From Bilabrum cf. latius (Eukaryota), in assembly GCA_965178125.1 (NCBI GenBank), contig OZ237737.1, forward strand, positions 1,116,001 to 1,180,000: a DNA stretch of 64,000 nucleotides, read 5' to 3'. Numbering within the stretch: position 1 is the stretch's first letter; every line of letters begins with the position of its first letter. Below the pieces are notes generated by a model. The model saw only the letters and a list, made by a program, of their open reading frames with translations. It did not search any database and was not told the DNA's origin. The translations under genes and the position numbers were made by a program. Shown here in pieces: positions 2,622-49,865 of this stretch.

Positions 2622-2706
2622 TGTGATACTCCCCCTCCTATACCTGCGAGAAATAGGGTGAACGCGGTTCATTTTTCCGCTCCAAGCTTTTATAAAGCAA
2701 TCTAGT

Positions 2707-3330: not shown

Positions 3331-3379
3331 TTATATTAGATTATAGGATTTTTTAAAAATCCTATAATCTAATATAAAT
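3329..3379. repeat. Perfect AT-rich palindrome, 25-bp arms
   Basis: ATTTATATTAGATTATAGGATTTTT-T-AAAAATCCTATAATCTAATATAAAT, overlapping the start codon of 2707-3330. Confidence 0.85.
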
Positions 3380-4720: not shown

Positions 4721-4791
4721 TACTCTCACACACCACATACCAGGGGGACCTCCAATTTGGAGGTCCCCCTGGTATGTGGTGTGTGAGAGTA
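4721..4791. repeat. Perfect palindrome (35-bp arms, 1-nt centre) at the right terminus of element A
   Basis: TACTCTCACACACCACATACCAGGGGGACCTCCAA-T-TTGGAGGTCCCCCTGGTATGTGGTGTGTGAGAGTA. Confidence 0.95.
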
Positions 4792-5742
4792 AATATGCGT
4801 CTACACACTAAGAACGCTGCACTCCAAGTTCCTCTCAGCACCAATTACGCCTACCCATGGGAAAAAACAATTCCTCATGAATTTCAGGGTAATACTGCTT
4901 TACTTGCTAATAGCGAAACCGTTGTCAGTATTCCCATCATCAGAGAAGACGTTGTTCCCGATATGTTTGTTCCTCATGTTGTGGTCAATCGTGGTGCTGA
5001 TGATTATGGTCCTGATATAACTCTACCTATTACTCACATAAGTTGCACCGTCGGCAATAAATTCAAACTTCTTGATGATCACAGCACTCGCGATCTTTAC
5101 GATTTAGCCGTTTCAAATGGCTACGTTGGTAGTTATGCCCAGTTTGCTGGTTTACTACTCAACCCCGCTGAAAGTACCCTTGCCAATTAGGTACTCGCCA
5201 ATTGGAGCATCTTACCTTTACGCCCCAGTTAGATGCCACTAGATGCCGAATTAATGAGTGGTGTCAAGAAAGAGTTTAGACTCACCAGCCTACAACTCAC
5301 CATTGCCAACCGCACAGCCAATGCAATCGCAGCCGGCGATTACACCATCCAAATCCCTTTCATGTATGGCGGATACATTGAATTTAAAAATGGACGCATT
5401 CAAGCCAAAGAGGTTGTTATTCCAGTAGCCAAAACACTCACCAGCGCTCCTGTGGTCTATCTTGAGGATGACAGCGAACATGCTATTCAAGGCGGACGCG
5501 GTGGACGCGGTTGGAAGAAATTCAAGAACTTCGTCAAGAAAGCTACACCATTTGTCCAAAAAGCCAGCAAATTTGTACGCAACCTACCAGGTGTAAACAA
5601 GGTCGCTGGTGATAGTACCGCTCTAGGACAGGTTATGAAAATGGCTGGTGCTGGTGTAAACCATGTTGGCGGTGGGGTTTAGATGGTTGGAGGTCAAGTG
5701 ATGAGTTCAAGCTAGGCAGATGCAATGGGAGGTTCTTACTAA
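4792..5742 (+). CDS. Virophage-type major capsid protein, C-terminal half (5' part separated by insertion of element A)
   Basis: One frame via TAGs at 5188, 5230, 5680 and 5713. LPITHISCTVGN..LL...STRDLYDLAVSNGYVGSYAQFAG resembles the second jelly-roll of virophage MCPs; Gly-rich/basic tail GGRGWKKFKNFVKKA. Confidence 0.7.
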
Positions 5743-7598: not shown

Positions 7599-8732
7599 TC
7601 AATTACTACAATACAACATGACCTCATTTGGAAACACCCTCTTGTTTGCCATGGCTTCTCGCTTTGGTAGTCGTGCATGTTGTACCTTTTGAAAGAAAGT
7701 CTTTAATCTCTCTATTCGCCTCAATAACTCATCTAAATCTGGAGCATAGTTAACATGATAGGCTACTACCATCTTTTTCAATCCACTAAAATCACATTGA
7801 TCCAAGATCGGCAATTCTGCTCCCTCTATATCCATCTTAACACAATCACAACCCTCGATTGCTTTTTTAAAACTAATGGCTGGCACAATCACCCGTTTTC
7901 TTCCTCGCACCTTTCTTAAGGTGGTATGATTCCACTCTGATTTTGCTAGATACAAAGGGATTTCTCGGGTCTCACTATCCGCCACCACCGCTTGGTTAAA
8001 ACAATTATCGGGGGTTACAGAATTCTAAACCAATATATTATAATTACCTTCATCTGGTTCATAACTCTTGATTGCTATTCCATGCATCTAACATCTGGCT
8101 GTAAATGCACCAATATTTGCTCCGATATCACACCACTTCTCCCCTTTCTCCTACTTGAAAAACTGTGTATATTCCATCTTTTTTCCTAACAATTCCTTAA
8201 TCACCTTGCTATCAGTAGTTTGCGGTCTCTCTACCAAATGATGATGATGATTATAAAAAACCAAACTGTATCTAGTACCTGTGAACGGTGCTGTCCAATG
8301 CTCCTAACTGTGACCATAAAAGTAAAACGGTTTCCGATTAATATCGATTTGCTATTGAGTTCCATCCTAGTTTTTTACCACTAACTCTCCTCCTTTGTAA
8401 TTTCCAAAAGCCACAATCATGGTTATACCTTTGTTTAGGCTATCTGTATGAGGGGCACACAAAAAGTTTTTGTTGACGGTTATATTGCTGAAACGCAAAT
8501 TAGGATCAATCTAGCGCCCCAACTTCACCAGCATTTGATGAATCTCGGGATTCTTAACCATAACAGTACTTGGTTGCCAAGATTTATCTTTAGAAAACAT
8601 TTTCTAGACCAATCCAAAGTTACAAGTTGGTATACTTTTCTTTCCACCTGAAATCTTACGTCTTGTTTTTCCAACTGAAAAGGTAGGAAACTTCCACTGT
8701 TCTAAAGCATTAAATACGCTATCGTAATTCAT
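7599..8732 (-). CDS. 2OG-Fe(II) dioxygenase + FkbM-family methyltransferase fusion (second, divergent copy)
   Basis: ATG 8732 to TGA 7599 with eight TAGs: [17 protein letters not shown]...YKGGEL...[17 protein letters not shown], then [33 protein letters not shown]. Confidence 0.8.
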
Positions 8733-11140: not shown

Positions 11141-12151
11141 TTAAAACAAGAAGCACTTGCTTTGAGTGACCGCGTATCTATTAATCTTATCTATATAGAT
11201 CCATCGACTGGATTTAAACTAATCCTCTAAAAGATGAATCTGTTTTTTGCTTAAACTTAAGTATTTACATAGCATGAATTCGCGATCACGCTCGGGAGTC
11301 TATCTGTAAATAATATAACTCTAACACTCTCGATGCAACAAACGGGTTTTTCTGTAATCACTGGGAGAGTGCGTAACCCATATTACACTCGCTCCATGGG
11401 ATCTTCCTTTAACAAGTAAGTGTTCGGCTAAAAACATGGCTCTTGATTCTAGTTCCCCCTCGATATCATCAAACATCAACACACTTGGACGTTCTAGTAA
11501 TTTGTGCAATCCCGGTGTTAAAGTATATTTACCACCTCTTTTCATGGCAACTTTCATTCTATCCAAGGCTTTCTCACCCTCAATCCTTTGTTCTGGATCC
11601 ATGCCTTTCTTTGTATGTTTAAACTCAATTACTGCATCTCGATATAATCTTGCTGAATCGTCTGGAACAACCAGTTCATGAATCGGGACTTCTATCATTC
11701 CTAATTCTTTGAATCGAGATTCCTAGGGTTTTCCGTTTACTACTACAATCTACAAGTTTGGATTTAAGTTTCTCATTGTTTGCAATATCTCAATTCCAAG
11801 AGTCGTCTTGCCACTTCCAGACATTCCAAAGTTGTAAATACAACAACGAGGACTCTCTTTAGTCATCAAGGGGATGATCTTTCCACTCTAGTTTTTAAAT
11901 TTGTAGATTTTAAAACCCCTATCTCGTAACTCCTCCCAGTGCTTTGGTTGATTCTTGACGATTCTAGCCTTGCGTTCGCCGATCTTGTACCTTAGGTAAG
12001 CCTAATCTACTGTTTCTTCTTCTGAGTCTTCAGAATCGCTGTCGCTTACGTTTTCATAAACTTTCGGCATGAAATAAATCACCTTTCCATCTCCGTAAAG
12101 TGAATATGCTATTGGATTACTGTTTTCCTATCTCATGGTACTTAAACTCAT
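11141..12151 (-). CDS. A32/FtsK-HerA genome-packaging ATPase
   Basis: Walker A GMSGSGKTT, Walker B LMFDDIE, KGRSHG and WVTH; continuous only with TAG read-through. Confidence 0.85.
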
Positions 12152-14225: not shown

Positions 14226-15431
14226 ATGAATAGTATCACAGATAAATAGCGAAAAATACTCAACCACTTGTACTACGATAAAAAGAGTTTTCTTGGACGG
14301 GATCGCTTTTGGAAACTTGCTTTGGATTTCGGTGTAGATCTACCACGACGAACCGTCTACTCTTGGCTGAGTAATCAAGAGGTGTATCAAATGCAAAAAC
14401 CAACACGCCAAGCCAAAAGTATTAAATCTACTCGATCCAAAGCACCATTCAACAAACTACAAATAGATCTAGTTGATATGAGTAGTAGCACAACAGCAAG
14501 AGGAGCAAATTGGTTACTAACTGCGATTGATGCCTATACCCGAAAAGCATACGCTTTGCCAATGAAAAATAAAAATGAAAAGACTGTTCTTGATAGTTTA
14601 GATCTTTTGCTGGATGAACTACCCAAATTACCCAAATCCATCTAGAGCGATAACGGTTCAGAGTTTATCAACAAGAAATTTAAAGCCCGTTTAAAATCCT
14701 TGAAAATTAAACAGATTTTGAGTACTGCAGGAAAGCCTTAGACCAATGGACTCGTTGAAAGATTCAATGGCACGCTCAAAAGATTTATTAAAAGCGATTT
14801 ACTGAGCACAGGCGAAAATGATTGGGATGTTAACTTGCCATTATATCTCAAAGCATACAATTCCACTCCACAAACTACCACGGGTAAAGCACCTGATAAA
14901 TTGGTTGAGGAATGGAAACAATCAAATATGAAAGAGGCTCCTGAAATCAAACAAGCATCCAAGCAAGATTTGGCAACCCAGCAATTCAAGATTGGCGATC
15001 AGGTACGAATTAAATTAGTCTAGAACCAAAACTAGAAACGTGCGGAAAATTGGTCCAAGGATTTATACCAGGTTGCCGAGGTGTTTAAGCCACGATAGCC
15101 TTGGAGTCCTTTCCAGTATCAAGTTAAGGATAGCCAGGGAGGCTTACTTAAAACCAAGTATGGCAACGAGGATTTGCAACAAATCAATGCGGTGGAAAAC
15201 AAGAGTAAATTAGCGGAGCGATTTGAACTTAGTAGCATTACACGTCCCAGTGTCCGAGATGGCGAATAGGGATACATTGTTAGATACAAAGGATACTCTA
15301 AACCGGAATGGAATAGCCTGAAAAATTTGGAATTGGATGTACCAAAAATGGTACGGCTATTTGATAAGCGACACAATGTGGTTTGGAAAAAAGACAAGAA
15401 AGACAAATGGACTTTCTCATGGAAAAAATAA
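14226..15431 (+). CDS. rve (DDE) integrase with C-terminal chromo-like domain, Polinton/mavirus type
   Basis: LQIDLVDM, AIDAYTRK, I*SDNGSEF, KP*TNGLVERFNGTLK, YNSTP, FKIGDQVRI, YIVRYKGY. Confidence 0.92.
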
Positions 15432-19873: not shown

Positions 19874-19946
19874 ATATACAAAGTAAATCAAATTAATCTT
19901 AAATGATTTCTTTTTTAAATAATATCCAGTTTAAAAGCGTGTCTCA

Positions 19947-20191
19947 GTTTTGTGTCTCACTTTTTACTTGGTTTAGTACGGATTTAATACGGAAGTTCTG
20001 TGTTCCATGTTTTTTCCACACTCTCTCTCAATAATTCATTTTTTACATTTCTCTCGAATTTCAAAATTATCATAATATCTGTGATTGTCAGAAAAAAGAA
20101 GGAAACATGGAACATTTCTTTTAATTTCTTTTAAATTATGGAACATAACTTAGAACAAACTTAGAACAACTCAAAAAAACTGAGAACATAC
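19947..20191 (-). repeat. ~250-bp dispersed repeat, copy 1 (inverted relative to copies 2 and 3)
   Basis: Near-identical reverse complement of 23224-23470 and 24279-24520. Confidence 0.9.
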
Positions 20192-20197
20192 TTATAA

Positions 20198-22498
20198 TTA
20201 AACCAAACACTCTTTATTCATCTTAATCTAGATCTTAATTCTTTCTGATGGTTGTACTATATCATCCTATGGATCCTCTACGCCTCCACTGGATTCCTCC
20301 TCAATTGCCATCAAACCCACATACACATAGGTAAGGTTTCCTGCTACTCTTGCTCGTTTCTTTGTAATACCCTAATTCTTTAACCATCGGGTTAGTTTAT
20401 TGGCAGACATGCCACATTTACTAAACTTTTCTTTTACTGTATTTACCAACTCTTGTTCGCTTTCCACCTGCTTGAAACATTTGGTAAACACCACGTATGG
20501 ATCACCCATCTAATCCGCCGTTAAATCATTCATCTCCTGCTAGAACTCTTTGGGTGGTACGAGATCTGCTCCACTGGATTCCTAGTATTGTTCAAATATT
20601 GCCCATGCCATTGCATCACCCAACCATGGTGTTTGATTGATCCATTGTTTAATATTTGGATCTCCTGCTTTAATGGTTTTGGTTGGGTTTAAGGAGGAAT
20701 CAAACTTAAAGGGAAATAGTACGATTCTGCCAGTATCCATAGCATCTGGAGGATTACTGGTGGGAATCTAATTAAAATTCATGAAACTTATACAGTTGTT
20801 GGAAACAGTAACCTCATTTTCTCTCATTTTACGGCACTAGAAACTATCACCACCACTAGCAATCACATTCTTTATAATGTTACCACTTAGCACAGCAGTT
20901 TTTTTGCTATCTCTGCTTTCGTTGGTAAATGCAATTCGTGCCTTGTGCATATTGGCAGTTAATACAAATCGTAAATCCATTGCCTAATCGGTAGAATTGA
21001 AATCTTTAGTAATCGGAGGATTGTACTGGGTTACATACTCTGCAAACGCTTTTTTGATTGCCTCCTATATTGTGCCTTTGCCACTATTTCTAGCACCCGT
21101 ACATAACCCAAAAAATTTATCACTAACACATCCTGAGATTGCTCTTGCAAACAATTTTAAGGTGTAATCTCTCTATTCATCGTTGCCAAACACATTCAAA
21201 ATACGTTCCTACAACTCGACGAGATGGGGGTGATCCCATCCTTGGTTTTCATACTATTCAAACAGTTTAACTGGAGCAGGGCGATTGATTCCTACAAGGC
21301 TGGTGGTGTTGCCTCTGGGTTGCCATTTGCGTTCGCTCATGTTCCAAACCTGATCGGAGAAAAAAACCAATCCGCGAGATTGATGATTGATGTTGGTTAA
21401 CCAAGTTGAACCCTAATCCTCTGCAAATGCTTTGATCATTTCGGCGATACGTTTAGCACCGCTTGCGTTGCGTGAAAAAGAGTTATCGTTTTTCCGTAAA
21501 TCTAAGTGGGCGATCATTCTAATTAAGGGGCTAACGCCTTCTTCCCAGATTCCTTTGTTGTTTAAGATATAGAAACTATCGCCTGAACGAACAAACTGTT
21601 TATTGTAATAATCTAAGAATATCTATGCACCATCCGTATCATCATCAATGGATTGCCCAATCACTGATTGGTTTTTCACAAGTTCCTCAGGATCTAGTGA
21701 ATGCAGAGGTTTCTCTACAATTTTCACCTTGTATCCCGTTTCTTGTTCAATAAACTATTCCATTTCGGGGATTTTAGAAGCACTCATATTACCCAATAAA
21801 CATCCATCATGAATTAAAGCGCCCACCTCAACTTGGTTTTGAGTGCACCACTTATACATTGCCATCAATGCATGGCGCTCTAAACTCTAAACAATTGTAG
21901 AACAATAGTGTCGGTATTTATCATGGCGTTTTTTGCTGGTTTTGCAACTATCAAGTTCCTTTTGCCATTTTTCTTGTTCTGAGATAAGTTTTTTCATGAT
22001 GGGATCAAGTTCGGATTTAAGTTTATGGAAAAACTGGGGAGCATCAGATTCTAATCCACCACCATTTAACAATCTCAAAACTTGGTTTTTGGTTGGTTTC
22101 CACTTTTTCCTAAGGAGTTGTACATTGGCACAATACAAATCCAATTGAGGGCATTCAATCTCACGTTTCGATAAATACTGGGAAAGCAAGTGGGGGTGGC
22201 AGTTTTGAATATCATAATCGTGGTAGATACCTTGAGCCAGTAATCCCCTAATTGGAGTGTACATTTGGGTGTAACAAAAACCAGTGTTGAATCTGCCTCC
22301 AAACTCATTATCATCGGTTGTGTATACCTATCGAATGGTGGCGATTGAAGGGTTATCACTCAAAGGTTTTGCACGTTTAATCCATTTGAGAAATGGTTTA
22401 AACTATCCTTCGGCACTACCAAATGATGCTCTACTGCTTTTGAGTTGTTTGGCATAATCCAGATTAATCTTGCTATCAATAGTTACTTTTGTGGTCAT
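20198..22498 (-). CDS. PolA-like (TVpol) primase-polymerase fused to D5/SF3 helicase
   Basis: GGRF, DYDIQNCHP, LIHDG; Walker A GARNSGKGT, IAFTNES, IASGGD; 767 codons interrupted only by TAG as far as read. Confidence 0.82.
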
Positions 22499-22931: not shown

Positions 22932-23216
22932 ATGAGTAAACATAATATTGTATTGAAAGTGATAGATTTAGAAGGCGACCAGTTTATGTATTAGGTTAGG
23001 AATTGTAATATTGTGCCAGAACTGTTGAAAGAATTGCACTCGGAACTGTATAAAAAACATTCAATCAGTAGAATTACTGTAAACCTGCTGAAAAAAGGAA
23101 CTTACAAAGTAAAAGATAGTAGTGAAGGTGTCTCAAAACATTACAAAGTAGAACCAGTATCGCCGGATTTATTGCCGATGCGAAAACCATGGAAATGGTT
23201 AAAGATTAGTAGTTAA
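22932..23216 (+). CDS. Hypothetical protein, paralog of 18999-19298
   Basis: ATG 22932, one TAG, in frame with ORF 23013-23216. Confidence 0.65.
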
Positions 23217-23223
23217 GTTTATT

Positions 23224-23485
23224 GTATGTTCTCAGTTTTTTTTGAGTTGTTCTAAGTTTGTTCTAAGTTATGTTCCATAATTTAAAAGAAATTAAAAGAA
23301 ATGTTCCATGTTTCCATGTTTTCTCTGACAACCACAGATTTTATGATAAATTTGAAATTCGAGAGAAATGTGAAAAATGAAATAATGAGAGAGATTGTGA
23401 AAAAAACATGGAACACAGAACTTCCGTATTAAATCCGTACTAAACCAAGTAAAAAAGTGAGACACAAAATGTGGAACTCTTTTAA
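23224..23485 (+). repeat. ~250-bp dispersed repeat, copy 2
   Basis: TGTTCTCAGTTTTTTT...GTGAGACACAAAATGTGGAACTCTTTTAA. Confidence 0.9.
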
Positions 23486-24226
23486 TTAAAAGAGAGCAAT
23501 ATCGATAACGGTTTGCATTAGTACTTTGGTCAAGGCAGGAGGTATGGTATACAGGACTTCAGTGGGTGTTTGAGTGTGCATTCCAACAATCTACCGCATC
23601 ATTTGCCACATGATTTTTTGAGATCGATAACCTTTTGATGGTCCACTAGCGATTGAGTAATGGTGCTTTAGGTTACCTTTGGTGGTGATTGATGAATGTG
23701 GACAATGATCGCTTTTACAGCATACTTTTAGCTTTGGCAGGAGTTGATCGATAAGATTGGCACTACCCCAGAATCTAGTTTTCTTGGCATAGATGTAGCC
23801 GTACATACAGTAACAAGCATCAACGTATGGTATGCCAGCAACCACATCACGTGTCTTTAAACAACCTGTAGAGGGGTTTTCCATGGTCCAAGCCGAAGGT
23901 TTGTAAAAATCAATTATGTCCAACACTCGCTACACCATCTTATCTGATTCTTTCCGGTTGGCTTCTAGATTGCTCTTATCCCGTACCATTCTTTTACCCA
24001 TACTATAATAGTGGCAAACTGGGGATGCGTGTATAAAATCAAAGTATCCCACAGGGAACGCTTGTTTGTAATCCCATTGCATGATATCAGTGCAGATGGT
24101 GGGTTTATATTTTTGTTCGATATCTAGTGAGACAACCTCGACTCTATTACCAAGTAGTTTGTGTAGTGCTTTGCTGATTGACTTTGTGCCACAAAACAAT
24201 TCCAAAACTCGAAGTTTCGGTTTCAT
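23486..24226 (-). CDS. Short cytosine-C5 methyltransferase-like protein
   Basis: LRVLELFCGTKS, SLDI, IHASPVC, MENP, YCMYG..YAKKTRFW; TAGs at 23930 and 23591. Confidence 0.75.
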
Positions 24227-24278
24227 TATAGTTAGTCCAAAGATTAAAATGATTTTGTTTTGAGTATATTATAAGTGT

Positions 24279-24535
24279 GTTCTCAGTTTTTTTGAGTTGT
24301 TCTAAGTTTGTTCTAAGTTATGTTCCATAATTTAAAAGAAATTAAAAGAAATGTTCCATGTTTCCTTCTTTTTTCTGACAACCACAGATATTATGATAAA
24401 TTTGAAAATTCGAGAGAAATGTGAAAAATGAAATATTGAGAGAGATTGTGAAAAAAACATGGAACACAGAACTTCCGTATTAAATCCGTACTAAACCAAA
24501 TAAAAAGTGAGACACAAAATGTGGAACTCTTTTAA
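24279..24535 (+). repeat. ~250-bp dispersed repeat, copy 3
   Basis: Direct repeat of copy 2. Confidence 0.9.
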
Positions 24536-25764
24536 ATTTCAAGTAAATCCATGATTGTTTTGTATTGATCTCTAGATAACCCTTTGTAATTGATTTGTAG
24601 GTTGTACAACCCATCTTGTTTAGATAAGAGAACCGAAGGTTCAGGTGGAGTAGGTTTGTTAGGAGATTGAGTTTTCATTTTTTCATCGCTTTCAATCTCG
24701 ATCACAGGTAGAGTGGATTGTTTGTTATGTTTAGGTTTAATAGGCTTAAGTATAGGTTCAGGCGATTTTATTTCCACTATAGGTAGTGAGATCTGCTTGG
24801 GTTTGATCTTGATCTTGGGTTTAGGTTTGGGCGATTTCAATCCCAGTACAGGTAGATCGCATCCATTTAGATGCTCCTATTCCTCACTGGTTCTGTACTC
24901 CTAATAGTAGGTTTTTTGGGTTTTCTTAGAATGCCCCATGGCACTGCACAGTGCTTTGCGTTGATCGAGTGATAAACCACGTGCCATCTGGGAACTCCAG
25001 ATCTTGCGGATATCTTGGGGTGAAACGTAGCACTCCAGCCACTTGAGGCTGTAGGGTTTTACAAGCCGACTGGTGAAATTCTTTGAACCACTGCCCCACA
25101 AGGGTGTATCATCGGATAGTAGACTGGCAATCTCCACTACACGATCGTTGATGGGCATATCTCGCTCCTAGGATGTGCCAATGACCACCCCCTTGTCGCT
25201 GCCCACCACCAGCACCTTGCGATCGAGATCGATTCGATTGGGAAAAGATGGATCTGTGCTGATAACTAATTGGCACAGAGCAGATGGTCTGATTGGAGAT
25301 ATGTAGTAGAGTATGGTTAGAAACAAGAGTGCCACCTGCTCGGGCTGCTTGAGCCCAGTGGCATCCACAGCACCTAACCGCTCTTGAGCCTGCTAAAGGG
25401 TGAGAGGCAGATCCTTTTTGGGTTGCTCTTCGCGATCTGATTGAAACTTGAGCGCCCATTCGCCTTTGGTTTTGCATAGCAGGTGAAAGCGCTCGCTCTG
25501 GCAGCCTTGGCATCCGAGGTAGGCTGTTAGGTGGTGCAGGGCGTAGTAGCATCGCATCGAAGCATAGGTGCTGTTGAGTTGTTTCATGGCGGTATCTATT
25601 TGTTCTTGGGATAGAGGGGCATCGGGGTTGCATCCAATCTTTTGGAGTAGGGAGCGGAGAACGGTGTTGCACTCGCGATGGTAGTTGCCCAAGGTTTTGG
25701 GATTGTGGTACTGTGTGGCTAGCCATGCTTTGATTTCTTGTACTAGTGTGTTAGTAGAACTCAT
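24532..25764 (-). CDS. Tyrosine recombinase-family protein
   Basis: Four ORF-track pieces in one frame joined by TAGs; SPIRP (Arg I), PQDIRKIW (Arg II), MGHSKKTQKTYY (His/Tyr). Confidence 0.75.
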
Positions 25765-25791
25765 ATACTATAATAATGGTAGAAAAAAGGT

Positions 25792-25799
25792 TTCAATTT
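25792..25799 (-). promoter_or_regulatory. AAAATTGA, Mimiviridae-type early promoter motif upstream of the recombinase
   Basis: TCAATTTT on the + strand about 30 nt upstream of ATG 25764. Confidence 0.45.
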
Positions 25800-26472
25800 T
25801 ATGAAATGTAAAAATGTAAAGGTTGCAGATTGCACTTGTAGTTGTGAGAAATTTGCGAGGGGTATCACTCGTTAAGGAAAGAGGTTAGAGAGCAGGGTGC
25901 AACACAATAGGTGGATAGTATAGTAAATGATATAATGGTCTGGGTAGAAGTTTAATTGTTGCTCTTGATTGGCAAGGAGAGGCACGAGGAAATGGTGAGG
26001 CACCTCCGATCTACAAAGGAAAGTGCTCCGGTCTACATAGGAACGGAGCAATGCCTCACGGTTGATGCCTCACGACCAATTCAGGGGCGAATGGATCAAA
26101 GCATTAGATCCTTGAACATTATACACATGTGTAAGAGATCAAACCATACTAGTGCTAAGCAGGAAAGGGAGGGCATGGCGGAAAGATCATAAATCAGGGG
26201 TGCAAAGAGAGGTATCGAGGACCTGAACCACGCGCTGCGCACGTGCGCTCCGCGACCGCCCCTCGCCCGTTTGAAACCCCTAGAGAAGTAAATTATATCC
26301 ATTAAGGAATTGCGGAATCCACAGCAACTCGCAGGAGAATCTGTTCGCGCCCAGCAACACTCTCTCCCGATCCATCTCTGCACGTACAGAATAACCCATT
26401 CAGAAATTTCGACTCTTGTACAATTCATGGAAAGTAATTACTTTTAACAAAAGTAAAATCCCCTATACTCTA

Positions 26473-26530
26473 CTCTCGCAGTCCATATGAAACCCGTAGT
26501 ATACTACGGGTTTCATATGGACTGCGAGAG
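26473..26530. repeat. Perfect 58-bp palindrome at the right terminus of element B
   Basis: CTCTCGCAGTCCATATGAAACCCGTAGTA|TACTACGGGTTTCATATGGACTGCGAGAG, followed directly by host coding sequence. Confidence 0.95.
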
Positions 26531-26531
26531 C

Positions 26532-29500
26532 CGGTTTGGTGGGCGAGGGTAGAAAGACAGCAATTGCGGCGGGCTGTGCCCTGCCGGGTTCTACTGCCCC
26601 CTGCAGACTACCGACTCGTCTGGCTCCCGGCCTCCGAAGCAGTGTGGTGGCAGCAGCTACTACTGCCCTGAAGGCAGCGGCAGTCGCAAGTGAGACTAAA
26701 TGTGCAAAGCATGCTGCACCTTGACTCTTAGTCTAGGCGTCCATTGCAATTCAATAATTCTGCTGGATTGTATGCCTATCTGCTACTACCAAGTATCGAC
26801 CTCGATCCCTTGCACTTGCTTGCAGCACGGTGTCCACCGGATACTACACGGTTGGCGGGCCCGACTCGCGGTTCCGGTCGAGCCAGCTCATCTGCGACAA
26901 GGGCCACTACTGCTCCAGCGGGGTCAAGTACCAGTGTCCTGCGGGCAAGTACGGCAGCTCCACCCGGCTGTCCTCCAACAACTGCAACGGCGGGTGCACG
27001 GCCGGGTACTTCTGTCCCGCTGGTTCCATCAGCAGCAGACAGGAGACTTGTGGGTCTGCACAGTACTATTGCCCGGCCGGCACCACCTCCCGTCGCACGG
27101 TCCAGAGCGGGTACTACAGCACCCCCGAGAGCGTGGAGCCCTGGAGGCGCACGGGACAGGCGCGCTGCTCCTCGTCTGAGGTGTGCGTGGAGGGCGAGAG
27201 GAGGCCTCGGCTTGAGTGGACCACCGGGTGCAACCAGGCCACGGGCACCGGCAGCGCCACCGTGAATGAGAGGTCCACTGCCGGCACGAACCTGGGCAAG
27301 CTAGCTCAGGCCCGCAGCAACGTGGGTCGCAGCATTTCCTACACAATGACCTCCTAGGCACCCGCTTCCGGGGTGTCTGGGTGCCCGACCCGGACCCCAT
27401 TCAGCGTGTCGAGCGACGGCACGTTCTCCGTCAAGAGCGGATCTGCCATGCTGGACTACGAGAAATGCCCGAGGTACACCGTCGGCATGCGCGTGACGGA
27501 TGCGCAGGTGACAATCACGTGCTCGCTGACTGTGAACCTGCGCGACCGCAATGACCCGCCTGTGCTGGAGAGCAGCCCAGTGCGATCAGTGGAGGAGGGC
27601 TCCGAGATCGACACCCCCGTGGGCGACAAGATCGGAGCGTCGGACGAGGACCGATTCCAGGAGCTACTATTCTCCATCGTGTCGGGCAACGACGACGGCT
27701 TCTTTCGGATCAGTCGGTGCTCTGGGCTGATCAGTGTGGCCAAAGAGGGCCTGGACTTCGAGACGGTGAATCGATACTCGCTGGTGGTCAGGGTGGTGGA
27801 CGACGGGAATCCCGAGCTGTCTGCCCAGACCACGGTGACGATCAACATCATCAACCGCAACGAGCCGCCCACGTGGGTGCGCACCAACTACGTGTTCAGC
27901 GCCATCGAGACGTGCTCGGACGGCGACGGCCTATCCTCCACGGACAAGGGCGTGCAGGCCACTGACGCTGATGCCGGCACCACGATCACGTACAGCATTT
28001 CGCGGAATGACCGCAGCGCGTTTGCCATCGGCAGCTCGACAGGCACCATAACGGTGGCCGACTGCTCCCAACTCAACTACGAGATCCAGGGCGAGCGCAC
28101 CTTTTCGATCGAGGTGGAGGCGAACGACGGAGAGATCGGCATCAAGCAGTCCGTCACCATCACGGCACTCAATGGAAACGAGGCGCCGGTGTTCACGCCC
28201 ATCACGCTCATCGGCCTCAAGATCAGCGAGGGCGCCAACTAGGGAGGCGAGGTGGGCACCGTGTCTGCTGACGACGAAGACGACCCAAGCACGCTGACAT
28301 ACTCGATTTCGGGTGGCAGTCAGGCCAGCTTTTTCGCGATTGATTCTTCCACGGGGCGGATCACCGTCTCGAGCGCGGGAGCGGTGGATGGTGCAGGCAC
28401 CCAGGGCCTGGACTTCGAGACGGCAGCATCGCACGAGATCGACATCACGGTGCAGGACTCTGGGCTGGACAACGACAACTCGAACCGTCTGTCCACGACC
28501 ACCAGCGTGACCATTGCGGTGACCGCGGTGAACGAGGATCCAGTGCTGATGCCGCAGGGCGTCACCGTGCACGAGACGCTGGGCGTGGGCGATGTAGTGG
28601 GTGCTGCTGTGAATTTCACGGACCCTGACAACGAGGGCCGCTTCCTGACCACTACCCCCAAGCAGCAGTCGCACACCCTGCGCGTGCTGAGCATTGATGC
28701 AGGGGGTTTTGTGATGGCGGATCAGCCGTTTCTGGTAGACTAGGACACTCGCACTCTTCGGCTGGGCCAAGAGCTGGACTTCGAGACATCTGCCTACCAC
28801 CGCGTTACCCTCGAGCTTGAGGACAGCCAGGGAGCCAAGGTGTCTGCACCCTTCAACATCACGGTGCTGAACGTGAACGAGGCTCCATCGGTCACGGAGG
28901 ATTAGTCCTATAACGTGGATGAGAACGACGCTCCCCCTGTCACCCTTGGCACCGTGGTGGGCACTGATCCTGACGGGGCATCCGATACGTCCGGCCTCAC
29001 CTTCGAGATCGACACGGATGCCAACAACACCCAGGCCTCTGACTTTGCAATCAGCAGCTCCGGTGTGCTGACGCTGCAGACAAACGCCGCATCTGGTGGC
29101 ACGGTGCCGGTCGGAGGGTACGACTTTGAGAGCAGCGGGGTGTTCAAGTCGGTGTCCATCATCGCCACGGATCCGCAGGGAGCCAAGAGTAACCCGGTCC
29201 TCGTCACAGTCATCGTGGATGACGTGAACGAGAACCCGTGGTTGCCATACCACAACATCGGAGTGCGAGAGCAGACCGCGGTTGAGACGGAGCTGGCCCC
29301 TCGCTTGCAGGGAGAAGACGTTGACAACAGATACAACGTGCCTCACCGGTCCAACTTGAACTACACGATCGTCACCAAGCATGTTGACCTGACCTGGATC
29401 TCGCTCCGTCCTGACGGCACGGTGTACCTGAGCGCAGAAGCCCCCAGCTTCACTTCCAGTGTGCTCAAGGCTTGGAACATGACAGTGCGAGTCACGGATC

Positions 29501-35500: not shown

Positions 35501-38500
35501 CTGGTGACTTTGACATCGCAACGTACCCGACCGAGTCGGGCGATCGCGTGACGCTGGTGATCGACGGTGACGGCTTTGGCCGCGACTGGGCCAGCGTGGC
35601 AGCTGGCACCGAGGCCGCCGAGGTGTTCGGGCCTGCTGTGGTAGAGTTGTGCGACCTGGATGCCCAGCCGCAGAGCGCACGGGACCAGCCCGGCGTGGCA
35701 CCGTCCACGATGGAGGAGTGCCTGCCCATGCAGGTGGTGATGCACACGGATCGGCGCCTGGTGGTGCAGCTGCCTGAGGGCGCAGGCGACCAGAAGTGGG
35801 TGCGCGTGTCTGTGCAGGGCCAGAGCTCTAGCCCCGTTGATGCTGGTGCTCGGTTTGCATATGCACCACCGGTGCTGCAGGCCCTGGATCGCGCTGCTAT
35901 CCCATCTGGTATGGTGCAGCGGCTGACCCCTGGCGCACCCCCGACCCGCGTGCCAGTGAACCTCACCTTGGAGGGCCGGTCATTCGCCTCGCCCGCAGCG
36001 CTGGCGCACCTGCGTCGCATCGGAAGCCTTCAGTCGGCCATGCTGTGGTCTGAGCTGGAGGCAAGGAGGCCTGATCTGCAGGCTGGAGAGAACTCTGGGC
36101 TAGGCACTCAGCTGGCACTGGGCTCCGGTACCCTGACTGTGCTGGATGCCGAGCAGGCATACGCTGCAGGGGCGGTCGCTGTGCGAGTAGTGGGCACGGA
36201 CCAGGCCGACCCCACTCCTCGCTATGCCCGCGTGGTGTCCCACTCCCACCGCCGCGTGGTGGTGGAAGTGCCCGAGGGCGAGGGCCGCACCAACCGCGTA
36301 TGGATCACGTCCGCCGGGCTGGAATCACCCGACTCGCTGCCTCTGTCGTACCAGCCTCCCAAGGTGCTCGGCGTGTACGACGACCGCGGTGATCCGCTGG
36401 GCGCCAACCTGGGCTGCTGCGCGACCACGGGTGGATTCCGCATCCGGATCCGGGGCGAGTCGCTTGGTATGCAGAGAGCCAACGAGGCCTTGGTGCCCGG
36501 CATCTCGGGCGATGATGACGCGGGCAGCAGCCGCAGGGAGCTGCAGTCCGTCCCAGTCGCAGACACGTCGCCCGTGGCGCAGGCTCGCCGCGCGCGCTAC
36601 CTGTACCGTTTCAGGCGCCGTGTGCTGATCGCGCACAACGAGCAGCGCGATGCCACGGTGTTCGACCCCACTGACATCGATGGCGGTCGCTTCCCGGCTC
36701 GTTGGAAGGAGTGCGTGGAGGACCAGCCTGCGGGGCTGGTGCCGTCTTGGGGCCATGACGAGATCGAGTGCACGATGCCGGACGGGGTCGGCACGATGCT
36801 GGCCATCGCGGTATTCACCGGGTACGATGCCCCGCAGCGATCCAACCGGCTGCTGGATTCCGATGGATCGGTGATCGACTTTTCGTACGATCCGCCCCGC
36901 ATCGACTACATGAGCCCGTTCCCGGCGGATGCCAGCGGAGACACAGTGACATTCTACGGTGCGAACTTTGCCGATGCCACCGGCACGATCCTGGCCGCGA
37001 ATCTGTCGGTGATGGTGGGCGGGCTGAAGTGCTCCGAGGTGCGCGATGTGTCGGCCGATGCTGCTGCCAGGCAGGCCCGGGCATCGAATGGTGCCACTGC
37101 CCAGGACTCTTCTGGCAGCGGGCCCCCGCCAGGTGCCGTGGCCGCAGGTCGCGCGTTGGTGTGCGATGCGCCTCGGGACACTGTGGGACTGAAGAACATC
37201 AGCATGGACGTGGCAGCGCAGGCGGTGCAGCTGTCTGTGGACTCTGACGAGAACACGCTGGCGACTGGGTCGAGCTTCGTGTACTGGGCGAGGTGCCAGG
37301 GCGGCTCTGTGGACTGGGGCCAGTATGACCAGGCGTACTCTCTCGCGCTCCAGGAGTACGGCTTCAGCGAGGACGAGCTGCTGGGCCTTGTAGCGCAGCA
37401 GGCTGGGCAGGAGCAGGCGTTGGGTGGCGCAAACGGCAGCAGCACGACGCCTCCCCCTTCGGTCCTCAACGCGGCCCAGACCACTGCCCTGAGCATGGCC
37501 AAGGCGGCCGGCATCCAGGCTGGCGTGACCCCTGGCACCGGCTTCTACGGTCGTGCCGGCGAGCTGTGCGTGCCGTGTCCCGAGGGTGGCGCATGCTTCG
37601 AGGACCACGACTACCTGCCCGTGGCCACGGCTGGGTGGTGGCTGTACCTGGATCCCGCGAACTCGGAGCGGGGCAACATCTACTGCCCCGATGAGCGGGC
37701 ACGGTTTGGGCCTGACTATGTGTGCCATGTGGTGCTGGCGTGCGAGCCGCAGGACGCGTGCGTGGGGAACAACATGTGCGCCAGCAACTACGCCGGAGAG
37801 CGGTGCTCGCAGTGCGCCCCCAACCACTACAAGCTGGCCGGTCGGTGCGCCAAGTGCCCCCAGAACCCCGAGATCATCGTGGCGGTGTTCGTGGTGGGTG
37901 CAATCCTGGCGTGCTCGCTGGGGTACTACCTGAACAAGCGCAACCTGACGCTGTCCACTCTGATGATCGCCGTGGACTACATGCAGGTGCTGGCCATCTT
38001 CAGCACGTCTCGCATTGCCTTCCCTAACCTGCTGCGCGACCTGTTCACGATCCTGTCAGCGTTCAATCTGAACCTGGAGATCACGGCCCCCGAGTGCATG
38101 GTACCGAGCCTGAGCTTCGGTCTGAAGTGGGCGGCGCTGATGCTGCTACCCGTGGCGGCACTGGCCATTCTGATGGTGGTGCACGTGATTCTGTCTCTGA
38201 ACAAGCTGCTGCTCATGGGCCGCAAGCTGCAGGAGAGCTGCTGCACGCACATGGACAAGCTTGTGTCTGTGTTCACGACGGGCTGCTTCGTGCTGTACCT
38301 GATGCTGACTCAGAGCGTGTTTTCGATCTTCAACTGCAACCCCACGGACCCCGCCGAGCTGAACCCCGACGGCAGCGAGAAGCTGTACATGGACGACGTG
38401 TTTGAGCCTTGCTACGAGCGCGGTGGGCTGCACTTGCAGCTGCTGCCGTTCGCCATCATTGGCTTTGTGGTGTACACGGTGGGCTTCCCTCTGTTCGTGT

Positions 38501-40065
38501 CTATCCTGCTGTGGCGCAACTACCGCGTGATGCAGGAGGACCAGCTGCTGCGGGCATACGGTCTGGGCGATGACACACTGACCGGGCCCAACACGAACTT
38601 GCTGCGCAGGAGCGTGGGTCGGCTGTACTACTACTTCCAGATCAACTTCATCTACTGGAACCTGGTGATCATCGCGCGAAAGTTCTGCATCGCCGTGACC
38701 GCGCTGCTGTTCCGGCGCAACGTTGTGTTCCAGCTGGCGGTGCTTCTGCTGGTGCTGATCTGCTGCTACGCTTTGCATGTGAGGTACTTGCCGTACATGG
38801 CGGGTCAAGCCACGAAGGACAACGTGGTGAAGCAGCATCGCGTGATGGTGGAGCAGCAGCACGACGCGCTGCACAGCTTGCTGGCCAACAACATCTCCAA
38901 GGTGCTGCGAGACCAGAAGCGGCTGGAGATGCACCGCAACCTGTGGAGGCGGGCGCAGGAGGGCAAGCCGCTGGGCACGCTTGCGAGCGAGGTGGCATTC
39001 GATGCCAACACGGTGGAGGCTGTGCTGCTGTTCAGCTGCATCCTGGTGTGCCTGGCCGGCATCATCTTCGAGTCGGAGTACCTGCAGCGTCCGGGCTTCG
39101 AGGCCCAGCGCGACTCCGCTGCGATCCTGACGATGGTCATCGTGATCACGAGTCTGGTGTACCTGGCCATCGTGCTGTTCTACGAGTTCAGCAATGCGCT
39201 GTGTCCGGACGTGGCCCGCAACACGTTCAGCTGCGAGTCGGCTGAGGAGAAGGCCAAGCGCGAGAAGTCGATGCGCTTCACGGGTGACCGTGGCAAGTCC
39301 GGCGGGAAGGATGCGCCGGAAGATCTGGAGGTGGGTGCCGCGGCACAGACGAACCCGATGTTCTTGAAGGCCCAGAGGAAGGCCAAGCAGCAGGCGCAGT
39401 CGGGTGGCGAGACCGAGTTCCACGCCGAGGATGTGGAGATCGACCAAGTGCTGATGGCCTAGACGGGCGAGCACGGGTGGCCAGAGGCACTGAGCTGGCC
39501 CGTGGTGCAGGACCTGCTGAGGAGGCAGCAGGAGGCCAACGAAATGTACAAGCGGAAGGCTCGAGCCGCTGATATGAAGGGCTCCAGACGTCAGTCGTTG
39601 ATGATGGGCGGCATGGCACGCGGAGGAGCCAAGGGCGGTGAGGCTGCCTCGTCGAGTGGCAGCTTCGGCCGATCTTCTTCCGCTCGCAAGAGGCTGGCAG
39701 GTCGTAGCGGTAGAAAAGCTCAGTTCACGCCCACGCTCGGAAACCGCCCCAGTCAGCGCAACCTGGGAGACAAGTCGTCTGGTTCCGGTGCCAAGTCCGC
39801 CAAGGGCCGCAGGGCGCCTCGTAGATCCAAGGCACCCGAGGGGGGAGCCACGGAGGACAGCTCGACGCAGAACCCGATGGCAGCAGCAGCGGCAGCCTCC
39901 GGGTCTCCTTCGGGCGGCTCGGACCGTGCACAGCTGCTCGGCAGCGGCGGCATGGGTCCTCGCCGCATGTCATCGAAGCAAGGCCTGAGCCTGTCTTAGC
40001 TTGAGGAGGTGCGCACCGAGGCCGCAGCTGCTGAGGCCGAGAGTAAGGCTGCTGAGGAGAGCTGA
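26532..40065 (+). CDS. Giant host cell-surface protein (CPAGxYCP Cys-rich repeats, cadherin repeats, IPT/TIG-like repeats, Cys-rich region, multi-pass TM domain); 5' part cut off by the viral insertion
   Basis: Exon 26532-26689, GT-AG intron 26690-26825, then a single frame 26826-40065 broken only by nine TAGs; cadherin motifs DRNDPP, LDFE, DxD, DVNE. Confidence 0.85.
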
Positions 40066-43247: not shown

Positions 43248-44987
43248 ATGGAGCAAGCAGCAGGTGCATGCTCAGGGGAGGTGATCGATCTCGTCAGCGG
43301 CGACTCAAGCGACAGCGACGCTGGTGGAAGCGATGTCAAAGTTTCCGACCGTCGCATAAGCACGATGGCTGCATCGCTATCATTGACTAGCAGTCGCTAG
43401 TGGGGCAGGCGAGAGGCAGGTGGGAAAGGTAGGGCACGAGATCGAGCCAGCGATCGAGCCAAAGCTGTTCCCACGTCCATCGTGGCGTCGGGACACTCCA
43501 GCAGCAGCGCAATGTTGCCGCAAGAAGTGCAATCTTCAATGCAGTCAACCTCAGGGGTAGATGCAAGCGGCGGCACCGATACCTCTTTGGGCCAGAAGCG
43601 AGACAGGCAGGCAGAGGCGAGGTCAGCAGCAGACAGCTATAGCGGATCGAGGGGAAAGAGACGGCGTGGGCAGGCAGGCAAAATCGGGGTAGGACATCGT
43701 TGCAACGTGTGCGGGCAGACATTCCGACAGGCAGGCGATCTCAGGACGCACATGAGGACTGTGCATCTGGGCGAGCGCAAGCACGAGTGCAGTGTGTGCG
43801 GCAAGTCATTCGGACAGGCAGGCTCACTCAGGACGCACATGAGGACTGTGCATCTGGGCGAGCGCAAGCACGAGTGCAGTGTGTGCGGCAAGTCATTCGG
43901 ACAGGCAGGCTCACTCAGGACGCACATGTCCACTGTGCATCTTGGGATGCGCAAGCACGAGTGCAGTGTGTGCGGCAAGTCATTCGGTGCGGCAAGCAAT
44001 CTCAGGAGGCACATGAGGACTGTGCATCTGGGCGAGCGCAAGCACGAGTGCAGTGTGTGCGGCAAGTCATTCGGACAGGCAGGCGATCTCAGGACGCACA
44101 TGAGGACTGTGCACCTGGGCGAGCGCAAGCACGAGTGCAGTGTGTGCGGCAAGTCATTCGGACAGGCAGGCTCACTCAGGACGCACATGAGGACTGTGCA
44201 CCTGGGCGAGCGCAAGCACGAGTGCAGTGTGTGCGGCAAGTCATTCGGACAGGCAGGCTCACTCAGGACGCACATGTCCACTGTGCATCTTGGGATGCGC
44301 AAGCACGAGTGCAGTGTGTGCGGCAAGTCATTCGGTGCGGCAAGCAATCTCAGGAGGCACATGAGGACTGTGCATCTGGGCGAGCGCAAGCACGAGTGCA
44401 GTGTGTGCGGCAAGTCATTCGGACAGGCAGGCGATCTCAGGACGCACATGAGGACTGTGCATCTGGGCGAGCGCAAGCACGAGTGCAGTGTGTGCGGGCA
44501 GACATTCGGGGAGGCAAGCAATCTCAGGAGGCACGTGAGGACTGTGCATCTGGGCGAGCGCAAGCACGAGTGCAGTGTGTGCGGCAAGTCATTCGGACAG
44601 GCAGGCTCACTCAGGACGCACATGTCCACTGTGCATCTTGGGATGCGCAAGCACGAGTGCAGTGTGTGCGGCAAGTCATTCGGACAGGCAGGCGATCTCA
44701 GGACGCACATGAGGACTGTGCATCTGGGCGAGCGCAAGCACGAGTGCAGTGTGTGCGGCAAGTCATTCGGACAGGCAGGCTCACTCAGGAGGCACATGTC
44801 CACTGTGCATCTGGGCGAGCGCAAGCACGAGTGCAGTGTGTGCGGCAAGTCATTCGGGCGGGCAGGCTCACTCAGGACGCACATGAGGACTGTGCATCTG
44901 GGCGAGCGAAAGCACGAGTGCAGTGTGTGCGGCAAGTCATTCGGGGAGGCAGGCAGTCTCAGGAGGCACGCGCGAGGTTGCCTTTGA
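43248..44987 (+). CDS. C2H2 zinc-finger array protein, 15 fingers
   Basis: 29-aa (87-bp) repeats HECSVCGKSFGxAxxLRxHMRTVHLGERK; ATG 43248 with TAG 43398 read through; start uncertain. Confidence 0.85.
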
Positions 44988-45314
44988 TTCGCTTGTATTC
45001 CGCATCGAGTGGCTCGGTGCTTGATATTGGATTGTGCACGCTGCATGAATAAAGGGTGATGCTTAGGAAGTCAGGAGCAGATATCCTGCACGCAGACTTC
45101 TTGTTCCATCATGCTCACTTAGGTACGATGCTACGTACTCATGCCTGGCAGGACCTTGACACTCGACTGCTGTTATATGTACTCGGACATCAGGATTGAA
45201 GCGACGGGGAGCAGAGGTGAGACGGAAGACGGGGCGGGCGCAGGAGGACAGGAGGTGGAGAAGAAGAAGGGGACACCGGCACAGGCGACGACAGTGCGGC
45301 GTCAACAGGGAGAA

Positions 45315-49538: not shown

Positions 49539-49865
49539 TTCGCTTGTATTCCGCATCGAGTGGCTCGGTGCTTGATATTGGATTGTGCACGCTGCATGAA
49601 TAAAGGGTGATGCTTAGGAAATCAGGAGAAGATATCCTGCACGCAGACTTCTTGTTCCATCATGCTCACTTAGGTACGATGCTACGTACTCATGCCTGGC
49701 AGGACCTTGACACTCGACTGCTGTTATATGTACTCGGACATCAGGATTGAAGCGACGGGGAGCAGAGGTGAGACGGAAGACGGGGCGGGCGCAGGAGGAC
49801 AGGAGGTGGAGAAGAAGAAGGGGACACCGGCACAGGCGACGACAGTGCGGTGTCAACAGGGAGTA

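What the first reader, a model, noticed from the sequence alone, without database searches (positions are those of the whole stretch)
24532..26530. Tyrosine recombinase next to the terminal palindrome, alongside an intact rve integrase: possible telomere resolvase
Seen: element B has both a complete DDE integrase (14226-15431) and a tyrosine recombinase, which is its last gene, about 700 bp from the 58-bp palindrome. The recombinase lacks the His of HxxR (QDIRKIW) and has MGHSKKTQKTYY. Known: protelomerases such as N15 TelN belong to the tyrosine-recombinase fold, lack that His, and resolve an adjacent palindrome of similar size into hairpin ends. Inference: integrase handles insertion while the recombinase handles excision or hairpin formation. 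Ordinary viral recombinases have similar motifs, so this is only a hypothesis.
Basis: inference. Interest (0 to 1): 0.7.

Follow-up and report, generated by a model that had tools for sequence, protein, structure and literature searches.

The report
Hairpin-ended virophage with ordinary recombinase
This is a small virus lodged in a protist chromosome whose ends look like opened DNA hairpins, and the recombinase gene beside one end looks like the usual virophage recombinase rather than the hairpin-making enzyme first proposed.

Summary
Observation confirmed, with a correction: the terminal palindrome is 56 bp (26474-26529), followed by a 5-bp target duplication. Element B is an endogenous virophage read with TAG=Gln, with intact rve integrase and a 410-aa tyrosine recombinase (YR).

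The telomere-resolvase reading is weakly supported. The YR family profile hits XerA and Tn1549 Int, not TelN/TelK/TelA/ResT. Protelomerases rank below Xer/Cre/topoisomerase IB in fold searches. The missing His is a family-wide trait (Gln here; Lys in TelN, Tyr in TelA). Palindromes and YR sequences do not co-vary. Sister family F has palindromic ends but no YR was found in it. rve+YR virophages and terminal palindromes are both in print.

Not found in my searches: flip/flop isomers at the ends of three sister families (F: 14:12 of 26 ends), which point to hairpin-ended free genomes that rve opens and inserts. YR occurs only in palindrome-ended families (3 of 4 versus 0 of 4; p=0.07, confounded by integrase clade), so a hairpin-related role remains possible (about 0.25).

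The parts
24532..25764 (-). Tyrosine recombinase, 410 aa under TAG=Gln. Core-binding plus catalytic domain (about 1-295) and a Lys/Pro-rich tail; R159, K191, Q250 (His position), R253, H278, Y287
26227..26529 (.). Right terminal inverted repeat of element B (303 bp; partner at G000:C3:1089237 onward)
26474..26529 (.). 56-bp perfect terminal palindrome (28-bp arms, centre GTATAC); inferred opened hairpin end
26530..26534 (+). 5-bp target site duplication GCCGG; the insertion lies in an exon of a host Cys-rich repeat gene
14226..15431 (+). rve (DDE) integrase, 401 aa, intact under TAG=Gln
20198..22498 (-). 766-aa replication protein with a helicase-like C-terminal part (DUF5906, E=4e-4, under the cut-off). 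The PolA/TVpol-like N-terminal part is inferred from motifs by eye. No pPolB hit among the 19 window proteins scanned
4794..5742 (+). 3' part of element B's virophage major capsid gene, interrupted by nested element A
   Evidence: Pfam MCP_V20_C E=5e-12
4724..4788 (.). Right terminal palindrome of nested element A (65 bp, one-base centre that is A or T among copies); target duplication GTAAA at 4789-4793
11141..12151 (-). Putative packaging ATPase (weak Pox_A32 match, E=0.09)

Best explanation
Element B is an endogenous virophage of the pPolB-less kind. Its free genome is most likely linear DNA with hairpin ends (inferred). The rve integrase joins the 3' end at the base of each hairpin to host DNA with a 5-bp stagger. 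Host repair then copies the unfolded hairpin, leaving a palindrome flush with the duplication. The product is shown; the steps are inferred, and insertion of an already opened end would give the same product. Hairpins are regenerated during replication by a step that inverts them (flip/flop), most simply by resolving the cruciform at head-to-head junctions, perhaps with a helper giant-virus Holliday-junction resolvase (inferred). The YR is the ordinary Xer/Int-like recombinase of virophages, PLVs and giant viruses. It travels with this integrase and replication module but is dispensable for hairpin ends. Its most likely job is four-strand site-specific recombination, i.e. entry into or exit from helper-virus DNA or resolution of circular or dimer forms (inferred; no site identified).
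For: Ends: 5-bp duplication beside a palindrome in 5 of 5 B copies and 3 of 3 A copies. Flip/flop: family F 101-nt imperfect palindrome 14:12 of 26 ends, with mixed ends in 4 of 11 two-ended copies; A centre A:T = 3:3 of 6 ends; D copy on C1 has opposite centres at its two ends. Palindromic ends follow the integrase clade (A, B, D, F together, 100/100) and the absence of pPolB; 6 of 6 sampled E/H/C/G copies have none. YR family: profile hits XerA E=3.5e-8 and Tn1549 Int E=0.002, no protelomerase at E<=10; PHROG integrase for 2 of 11 members; hhalign against TelN 0.9% and against 6 phage protelomerases 0.2%. Catalytic-domain model: topoisomerase IB Z 11.4, XerA 11.3, versus TelA 8.4, TelK 8.2, ResT 4.9. 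Nearest viral folds are mostly giant-virus proteins, top hit a named YR. F: no YR in 2 of 2 copies read whole, and three genome-wide YR searches hit only A, B and D. No co-variation: A-type YRs are 68% identical with identical palindromes; D-type YRs are 94-96% identical with different palindromes, centres and parity.
Against: YR is present in 3 of 4 palindrome-ended families and 0 of 4 others (one-sided p=0.07), and all mid-GC, pPolB-less EMALEs carry one. The three YR families have perfect palindromes that change symmetrically on both arms, as centre-cutting would enforce, while the YR-less family has an imperfect one. B itself cannot show flip/flop. No free genome or raw read was seen (one search gave contigs only). 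Only 2 of about 15 F copies were read whole. No YR target site was found.
Confidence: 0.58

Rival explanations
1. The YR is a telomere resolvase, evolved independently from a Xer-like enzyme. It cuts the palindrome centre with a short stagger and reseals hairpins, resolving replicated junctions and excising the integrated copy.
For: YR is next to a TIR in A and B. It occurs only in palindrome-ended families (3 of 4 versus 0 of 4), and those three have perfect, symmetrically changing arms. B's site is 56 bp like N15 telRL, and its centre GTATAC equals the presumed VHML centre (a 1-in-64 coincidence is possible). Resolvases and recombinases are interconvertible by mutation (PMC12270096).
Against: No profile match to protelomerases and lower fold scores. 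All known protelomerases cut 6 bp apart with strict centre requirements, yet A and two of three D variants have odd centres, and D enzymes 94-96% identical sit beside centres of different sequence and parity. F keeps an imperfect flip/flop end without YR, which centre-cutting cannot maintain (inference). Halocafeteria PLV subtype 4 has palindromes while its PLVs lack Yrec. No solo palindromes or half-site scars for A or B. In D the YR lies beside rve, not at a TIR.
Confidence: 0.13
2. The YR helps make hairpin ends but not as a protelomerase. It resolves the four-way junction of the extruded cruciform at replicated ends and religates it, replacing a helper resolvase that YR-less elements borrow.
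For: Fits the restriction of YR to pPolB-less, palindrome-ended elements and tolerates odd centres and flip/flop. The catalytic domain is as close to topoisomerase IB as to XerA. Holliday-junction intermediates are normal for YRs.
Against: No direct evidence. F shows the YR is not required. The co-occurrence is confounded by shared integrase and replication modules.
Confidence: 0.12
3. The palindromes are only fold-back primers on an excised single strand or open linear end (the Halocafeteria preprint's model). No covalently closed form exists, and YR is unrelated to the ends.
For: Proposed in 10.64898/2026.07.28.741278 for 52-nt palindromes of non-pPolB elements. Fold-back copying would also keep the arms perfect.
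Against: Needs an added nick-and-copy step to give the near 1:1 flip/flop at F ends, at which point it converges on a hairpin-ended replicon.
Confidence: 0.14
4. The flip/flop forms are assembly artefacts or occasional copying errors in the chromosome and say nothing about the free genome.
For: Raw reads were not available. Single-base centres in A and D could be polishing errors.
Against: In F a whole 26-nt/19-nt asymmetric block is exactly reverse-complemented at 12 of 26 independent ends, each with its own flank, which is not a rare error.
Confidence: 0.05

Closest known systems
Mid-GC EMALEs (types 5-7) of Cafeteria burkhardae (PMC8547959; passages read)
   Same: Endogenous virophage with TIRs and target duplication; rve integrase plus YR; no pPolB, long primase/helicase-polymerase ORF; a separate rve clade; Ngaro retrotransposon insertions.
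   Different: The paper's main text has no 'palindrom' or 'hairpin'; YR is proposed for integration into giant-virus genomes. Here the elements read TAG as Gln and end in palindromes with flip/flop forms.
Halocafeteria seosinensis endogenous virophage subtypes 1, 2, 5, 6 and PLV subtype 4 (bioRxiv 10.64898/2026.07.28.741278; Results section read whole, figures and supplements not seen)
   Same: [quoted passage not shown]
   Different: Proposes hairpin priming; the Results text read reports no flip/flop isomers and does not link Yrec to the palindromes. Which subtypes carry Yrec is in figures I could not see.
OLV11-like tyrosine recombinases of virophages, PLVs and giant viruses (PMC4642659; passages)
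   Same: Xer/Int-like YR in Preplasmiviricota and giant viruses. Fold hits include Aureococcus anophagefferens virus, which the paper names as an OLV11-like carrier. A D-family relative falls among Preplasmiviricota clusters at 0.97.
   Different: Not compared with OLV11 or PgVV ORF3 directly. There it is usually the only integrase candidate; here it accompanies rve.
Protelomerases TelN (N15), TelK, TelA, ResT; phaeovirus telomere resolvase (PMC3558466, PMC13236599; passages and one section)
   Same: Same catalytic fold with R-K-x-R-H-Y; non-His residue at the HxxR position; gene near a 56-bp inverted repeat (N15: 165 bp away).
   Different: Lys (TelN) or Tyr (TelA, ResT) at that position against Gln here; no profile similarity; TelN is 631 aa. 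The N15 site is a single internal, imperfect repeat, whereas here identical palindromes cap both ends of an rve-integrated element.
Poxvirus flip-and-flop mismatched hairpin telomeres (mechanism recalled; named in passages and a reference title in PMC12085832)
   Same: Incompletely paired terminal hairpins in two reverse-complement forms, as in family F.
   Different: Those genomes are not inserted by an rve integrase; no resolvase gene was recognised in family F.

Membership tests
Telomere resolvases (TelN/TelK/TelA/ResT, PF16684) | Tyrosine-recombinase/topoisomerase IB catalytic fold with R, K, R, H, Y | tested here: met
   R159 K191 R253 H278 Y287; TelA Z 8.4, rmsd 3.9, 164 aligned
Telomere resolvases (TelN/TelK/TelA/ResT, PF16684) | Sequence-profile membership | tested here: not met
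   No PF16684 hit for 11 of 11 family members at E<=10 or in the genome (control found 1 of 14); hhalign 0.9% and 0.2%; PDB profile search gives Xer/Int only
Telomere resolvases (TelN/TelK/TelA/ResT, PF16684) | Lys or Tyr at the first position of HxxR | tested here: not met
   Gln here; Q,Q,Q,S,N,N,N,M,T,A,R across 11 relatives; TelN KDSR; TelA/ResT Tyr
Telomere resolvases (TelN/TelK/TelA/ResT, PF16684) | Closest solved folds are protelomerases | tested here: inconclusive
   They rank about 3-5 Z units below XerA, Brujita Int and topoisomerase IB, but on shallow-alignment models (pLDDT 72 and 80), and fold rank does not show function
Telomere resolvases (TelN/TelK/TelA/ResT, PF16684) | Cognate palindrome with a symmetric, conserved 6-bp centre | tested here: inconclusive
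   Met in B (GTATAC in both variants); not met in A and in 2 of 3 D variants, which have odd centres
Telomere resolvases (TelN/TelK/TelA/ResT, PF16684) | Cuts 6 bp apart and reseals two hairpins | not testable with these tools
   Needs an in vitro assay
Virophage/PLV (OLV11-like) tyrosine recombinases | Xer/Int-like core-binding plus catalytic domains | tested here: met
   N-terminal 1-103 matches integrase core-binding domain 3nrw Z 8.0, rmsd 3.2; whole chain Brujita Int Z 11.8, XerA 11.4; XerA E=3.5e-8
Virophage/PLV (OLV11-like) tyrosine recombinases | Nearest relatives in Preplasmiviricota and giant viruses | tested here: met
   BFVD top rows; Atlas clusters for a D-family relative, not for this protein; same family near rve in 2 metagenome contigs
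Virophage/PLV (OLV11-like) tyrosine recombinases | Direct similarity to OLV11 or PgVV ORF3 | not tested
   Reference sequences were not retrieved
Endogenous virophage, mid-GC EMALE-like | Virophage-type major capsid protein | tested here: met
   MCP_V20_C E=5e-12
Endogenous virophage, mid-GC EMALE-like | TIRs, target duplication, rve plus YR, no pPolB | tested here: met
   (pPolB absence rests on 19 window proteins scanned and the ORF lists)
Endogenous virophage, mid-GC EMALE-like | Penton, maturation protease, packaging ATPase | tested here: inconclusive
   ATPase weak (E=0.09); B's protease- and penton-like ORFs lie outside the window and were not scanned

The most novel reading that the evidence does not exclude
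The widespread virophage/PLV tyrosine recombinase is a hairpin-telomere resolvase that arose independently of the TelN family. With rve it forms a two-enzyme cycle: rve opens and inserts hairpin ends, and the YR cuts the resulting palindromes to release a closed linear genome.
Probability: 0.15. Interest if true: 0.8.

Novelty: new variant of a known kind. Interest (0 to 1): 0.48.

Why it matters
How virophages and polinton-like viruses without a protein-primed polymerase replicate their ends is open, and so is what their second integrase does. Flip/flop ends in this genome are sequence evidence for hairpin-ended replicons, and they imply a retroviral-type integrase working on such ends. The genome offers natural controls (palindrome with YR, palindrome without YR, pPolB without palindrome) and a 56-bp candidate substrate, so both questions become directly testable. 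The recombinase itself is a known kind.

Tried and rejected
Relatives are scarce. Protein searches gave 1, 3 and 2 hits and 5 representatives. Viral-contig scans found no YR relative and no close rve relative; an rve alignment gave 3 viral and 80 metagenome loci. Of these 83 loci, 2 carry this YR family; no terminal palindrome was seen in the 11 whose ends were inspected, so co-occurrence could not be tested outside this genome. The 5-sequence profile found nothing in the PDB, and tblastn of a YR relative against phages gave one chance hit.

Sequencing runs: no RNA holder listed. The four runs laid were contigs only and showed no strand-change joint at the palindrome, which is uninformative. 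The joint 24537-26227 matches the left end of copies on C3, C5 and C9, not loss of the YR gene.

The C14 element (YR plus rve) is broken up by retrotransposons and its ends were not resolved; it was not counted as a separate family. The other end of the C36 copy was not found. More whole F copies could not be read.

Rejected: 'missing His marks a protelomerase'; '58-bp site' (56 bp plus 1 bp of duplication); pseudogene or frameshift readings of the TAG codons (a host exon also has an in-frame TAG). Literature searches listed no paper whose title or abstract start proposes a virophage YR as telomere resolvase or reports flip/flop virophage ends; the library lacks most subscription papers.

Full report
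WHAT IS THERE. The window is G000:C3:1116001-1180000 of a 48.6-Mb genome in 111 contigs. Its first 26.5 kb are AT-rich against about 60-68% GC beyond. The AT-rich genes open only when TAG is read as Gln, and a host exon beside the insertion also carries an in-frame TAG. Element B runs from C3:1089237 to window 26529, with element A nested in its capsid gene. B has a virophage capsid gene (MCP_V20_C, E=5e-12), an rve integrase (E=1.4e-16) and a helicase-like replication protein; none of 19 window proteins scanned hit pPolB.

THE OBSERVATION. The YR ORF (24532-25764, minus strand, 410 aa) and both motifs are as described. Four B copies have the 410-aa ORF and the C25 copy a 386-aa one; dN/dS between window and C25 is 0.14 over 289 codons. 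The palindrome is 56 bp, not 58: in 5 of 5 copies the element ends there and a 5-bp duplication follows. It caps both ends; the genome holds exactly 10 such palindromes and no solo copy. A 5-bp duplication with palindromes at both ends is an rve footprint, not a YR one (established knowledge).

IS THE YR A PROTELOMERASE? An 11-member family alignment has R159, K191, R253 and Y287 invariant and H278 nearly so. The His position of HxxR reads Q,Q,Q,S,N,N,N,M,T,A,R. TelN has Lys there, and TelA and ResT have Tyr (PMC3558466, passages), so the missing His is a family trait and not a protelomerase mark. The family profile finds XerA (E=3.5e-8) and Tn1549 Int (0.002) in the PDB and no protelomerase at E<=10. 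Profile-profile probabilities against TelN and against six phage protelomerases are 0.9% and 0.2%. PF16684 hits none of 11 members and nothing in the genome.

Two AlphaFold models (pLDDT 72 and 80) show a core-binding plus catalytic architecture. Whole chain: Brujita Int Z 11.8, XerA 11.4, Cre 10.6, TelA 6.8, TelK 6.3. Catalytic domain: variola topoisomerase IB 11.4 (rmsd 3.2, 162 aligned), XerA 11.3 (3.7, 158), TelA 8.4 (3.9, 164), TelK 8.2 (4.4, 168), ResT 4.9. The best viral folds are mostly giant-virus proteins, the top one a named YR, and a D-family relative sits among Preplasmiviricota clusters. This is the known virophage/PLV recombinase type, probably OLV11-like (PMC4642659, passages; not compared directly). 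Failing membership does not exclude a resolvase-like activity, since TelA can be mutated into a recombinase (PMC12270096, passages).

THE GENOME AS ITS OWN CONTROL. A capsid search gave 63 matches, which I grouped by score tiers into eight families. A (3 copies), B (5) and D (4 copies, plus a fragmented relative on C14) end in perfect palindromes of 56-69 bp and carry the YR. F ends in a 101-nt imperfect palindrome (26 ends). No YR was found in the 2 F copies read whole. A profile scan of 5201 open frames in 74 loci hit only A, B and D, and found both halves of genes split across locus borders. E, H, C and G (2, 2, 1 and 1 copies read) have no terminal palindrome and no YR. They carry pPolB-like genes: Pfam hits for G (above cut-off) and H (just under), motifs by eye for E and C. 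The integrase tree puts A, B, D and F in one clade and E, H and C in another, both 100/100 (G not included; F is a long branch). Palindromes therefore track the integrase clade and the lack of pPolB. YR tracks them in 3 of 4 versus 0 of 4 families (one-sided p=0.07), which the shared clade confounds.

Enzyme and site do not co-vary. A-type YRs are 68% identical beside identical palindromes. D-type YRs are 94-96% identical beside palindromes that differ by 4-6 substitutions per arm, an indel, the centre sequence and odd versus even parity. Known protelomerases all cut 6 bp apart and are strict about the centre (PMC3558466 section 10). On the other side, the three YR families keep perfect arms through these changes (4 symmetric changes between B variants), as centre-cutting would enforce, and only the YR-less family is imperfect.

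FLIP/FLOP ENDS. In F the asymmetric inner block appears in two exact reverse-complement forms at 14 and 12 of 26 ends. Among 11 copies with both ends paired, 4 are mixed, 4 flip/flip and 3 flop/flop. In A the single central base is A at 3 ends and T at 3. In D the C1 copy has opposite centres at its two ends and the C40 copy has the same. B's even, perfect palindrome cannot show it. Such isomers are the signature of hairpin-ended replicons such as poxviruses (recalled). An earlier scan note on an IS91 hairpin blamed a rare loop inversion on copying error; a near 1:1 ratio does not fit that. Raw reads were not available to exclude an assembly effect.

HOW IT MOST LIKELY WORKS. Shown: duplication-palindrome-TIR at each end, two end isomers, an intact rve and a conserved YR. 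Inferred: the free genome has hairpin ends. rve joins the 3' end at the hairpin base (CA in D and F, GA in A and B) to the host, and repair unfolds and copies the hairpin; inserting an already opened end gives the same product. Replication through the hairpins and resolution of the junction cruciform inverts them. An imperfect flip/flop end cannot be kept by cutting at the centre, so F needs another route, and an A22-like resolvase is present in about 75% of giant viruses (PMC13236599, passage). The YR most likely performs ordinary site-specific recombination, for instance with helper-virus DNA as proposed for EMALEs. I put 0.58 on this reading, 0.13 on a centre-cutting resolvase, 0.12 on a cruciform-resolving role, 0.14 on fold-back priming without closed ends, and 0.05 on artefact.

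WHAT IS KNOWN. All mid-GC EMALEs of Cafeteria lack pPolB and carry a YR, types 5-7 with rve (PMC8547959, passages). Halocafeteria virophages and one PLV subtype have palindromes next to the duplication, tied to non-pPolB replication; some virophages but no PLVs have RVE+Yrec (bioRxiv 10.64898/2026.07.28.741278, Results read whole). Its figures and supplements, which say which subtypes carry Yrec, were not visible and bear directly on the co-occurrence question. A real protelomerase acts at an internal site in phaeoviruses. PgVV is linear with TIRs, Yrec and TVpol (10.1101/2022.07.28.501842, passages). Searches turned up no report of flip/flop virophage ends or of a virophage YR as resolvase.

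VERDICT. A real feature and a new variant of a known kind. The recombinase is ordinary by family and probably not the hairpin maker, though a hairpin-related role keeps about one chance in four. The more valuable result is the evidence for hairpin-ended, rve-integrated virophages, with built-in controls. Interest 0.48.

Noticed in passing
window 26530-26690 and whole element: The host appears to read TAG as Gln too (in-frame TAG in the interrupted exon). Families A, B, E, F and H use TAG freely, while family D's rve, capsid and YR genes contain none, suggesting recent arrival from a standard-code host.
   Followed up: partly
G000 family F ends, e.g. L099, L100, L078, L081: 101-nt imperfect terminal palindrome in flip and flop forms (14:12 of 26 ends) in a virophage family with Prim-Pol/helicase and rve, with no pPolB and no YR found.
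   Followed up: yes
window 19930-20207, 23207-23485, 24259-24537 and beside the left TIR (L005 1827-2106): A 250-280-bp block repeated four times (85-95% alike) flanks accessory genes such as the methylase at 23486-24226; it could be a promoter cassette or a recombination site for the YR.
   Followed up: no
window 705-2759 and 7599-8732: Both elements encode a Tet/JBP-type 2OG-Fe(II) oxygenase fused to an FkbM methyltransferase; B also has two C5 methylases and a SET protein. Possible DNA-modification system.
   Followed up: no
L031 6729-7820: Element A carries a T4 Rnl1-type RNA ligase gene (E=6e-15) next to its YR.
   Followed up: no
L047 4643-5584, L112, L115, L071: In four D-family copies the YR has Asn in place of the His of the (L/M)GH motif; activity may be reduced or altered.
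   Followed up: partly
window 3329-3379: A 51-bp AT-rich perfect hairpin inside element A, also found about 1.4 kb from a terminal palindrome in the C2 and C20 copies.
   Followed up: no
window 43600-60800: Host region with four roughly 4.3-4.6-kb tandem units, each holding an array of 87-bp repeats (54 copies in all).
   Followed up: no
window 37540-40065 and 61475-64000: A 2.5-kb inverted repeat (97%) in the GC-rich part, probably copies of a retrotransposon.
   Followed up: no
L034, L035, L046-L048, L072, L079: GC-rich retrotransposons with a YR-like ORF (Ngaro-like by recall) and their solo repeats are inserted in many virophage copies, as in Cafeteria.
   Followed up: no
window 25063-25646, runs X9 and X10: Two salt-lake metagenomes hold contigs covering part of the YR gene with about 51-52 differences over 395 bases, so relatives exist in the environment.
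   Followed up: partly
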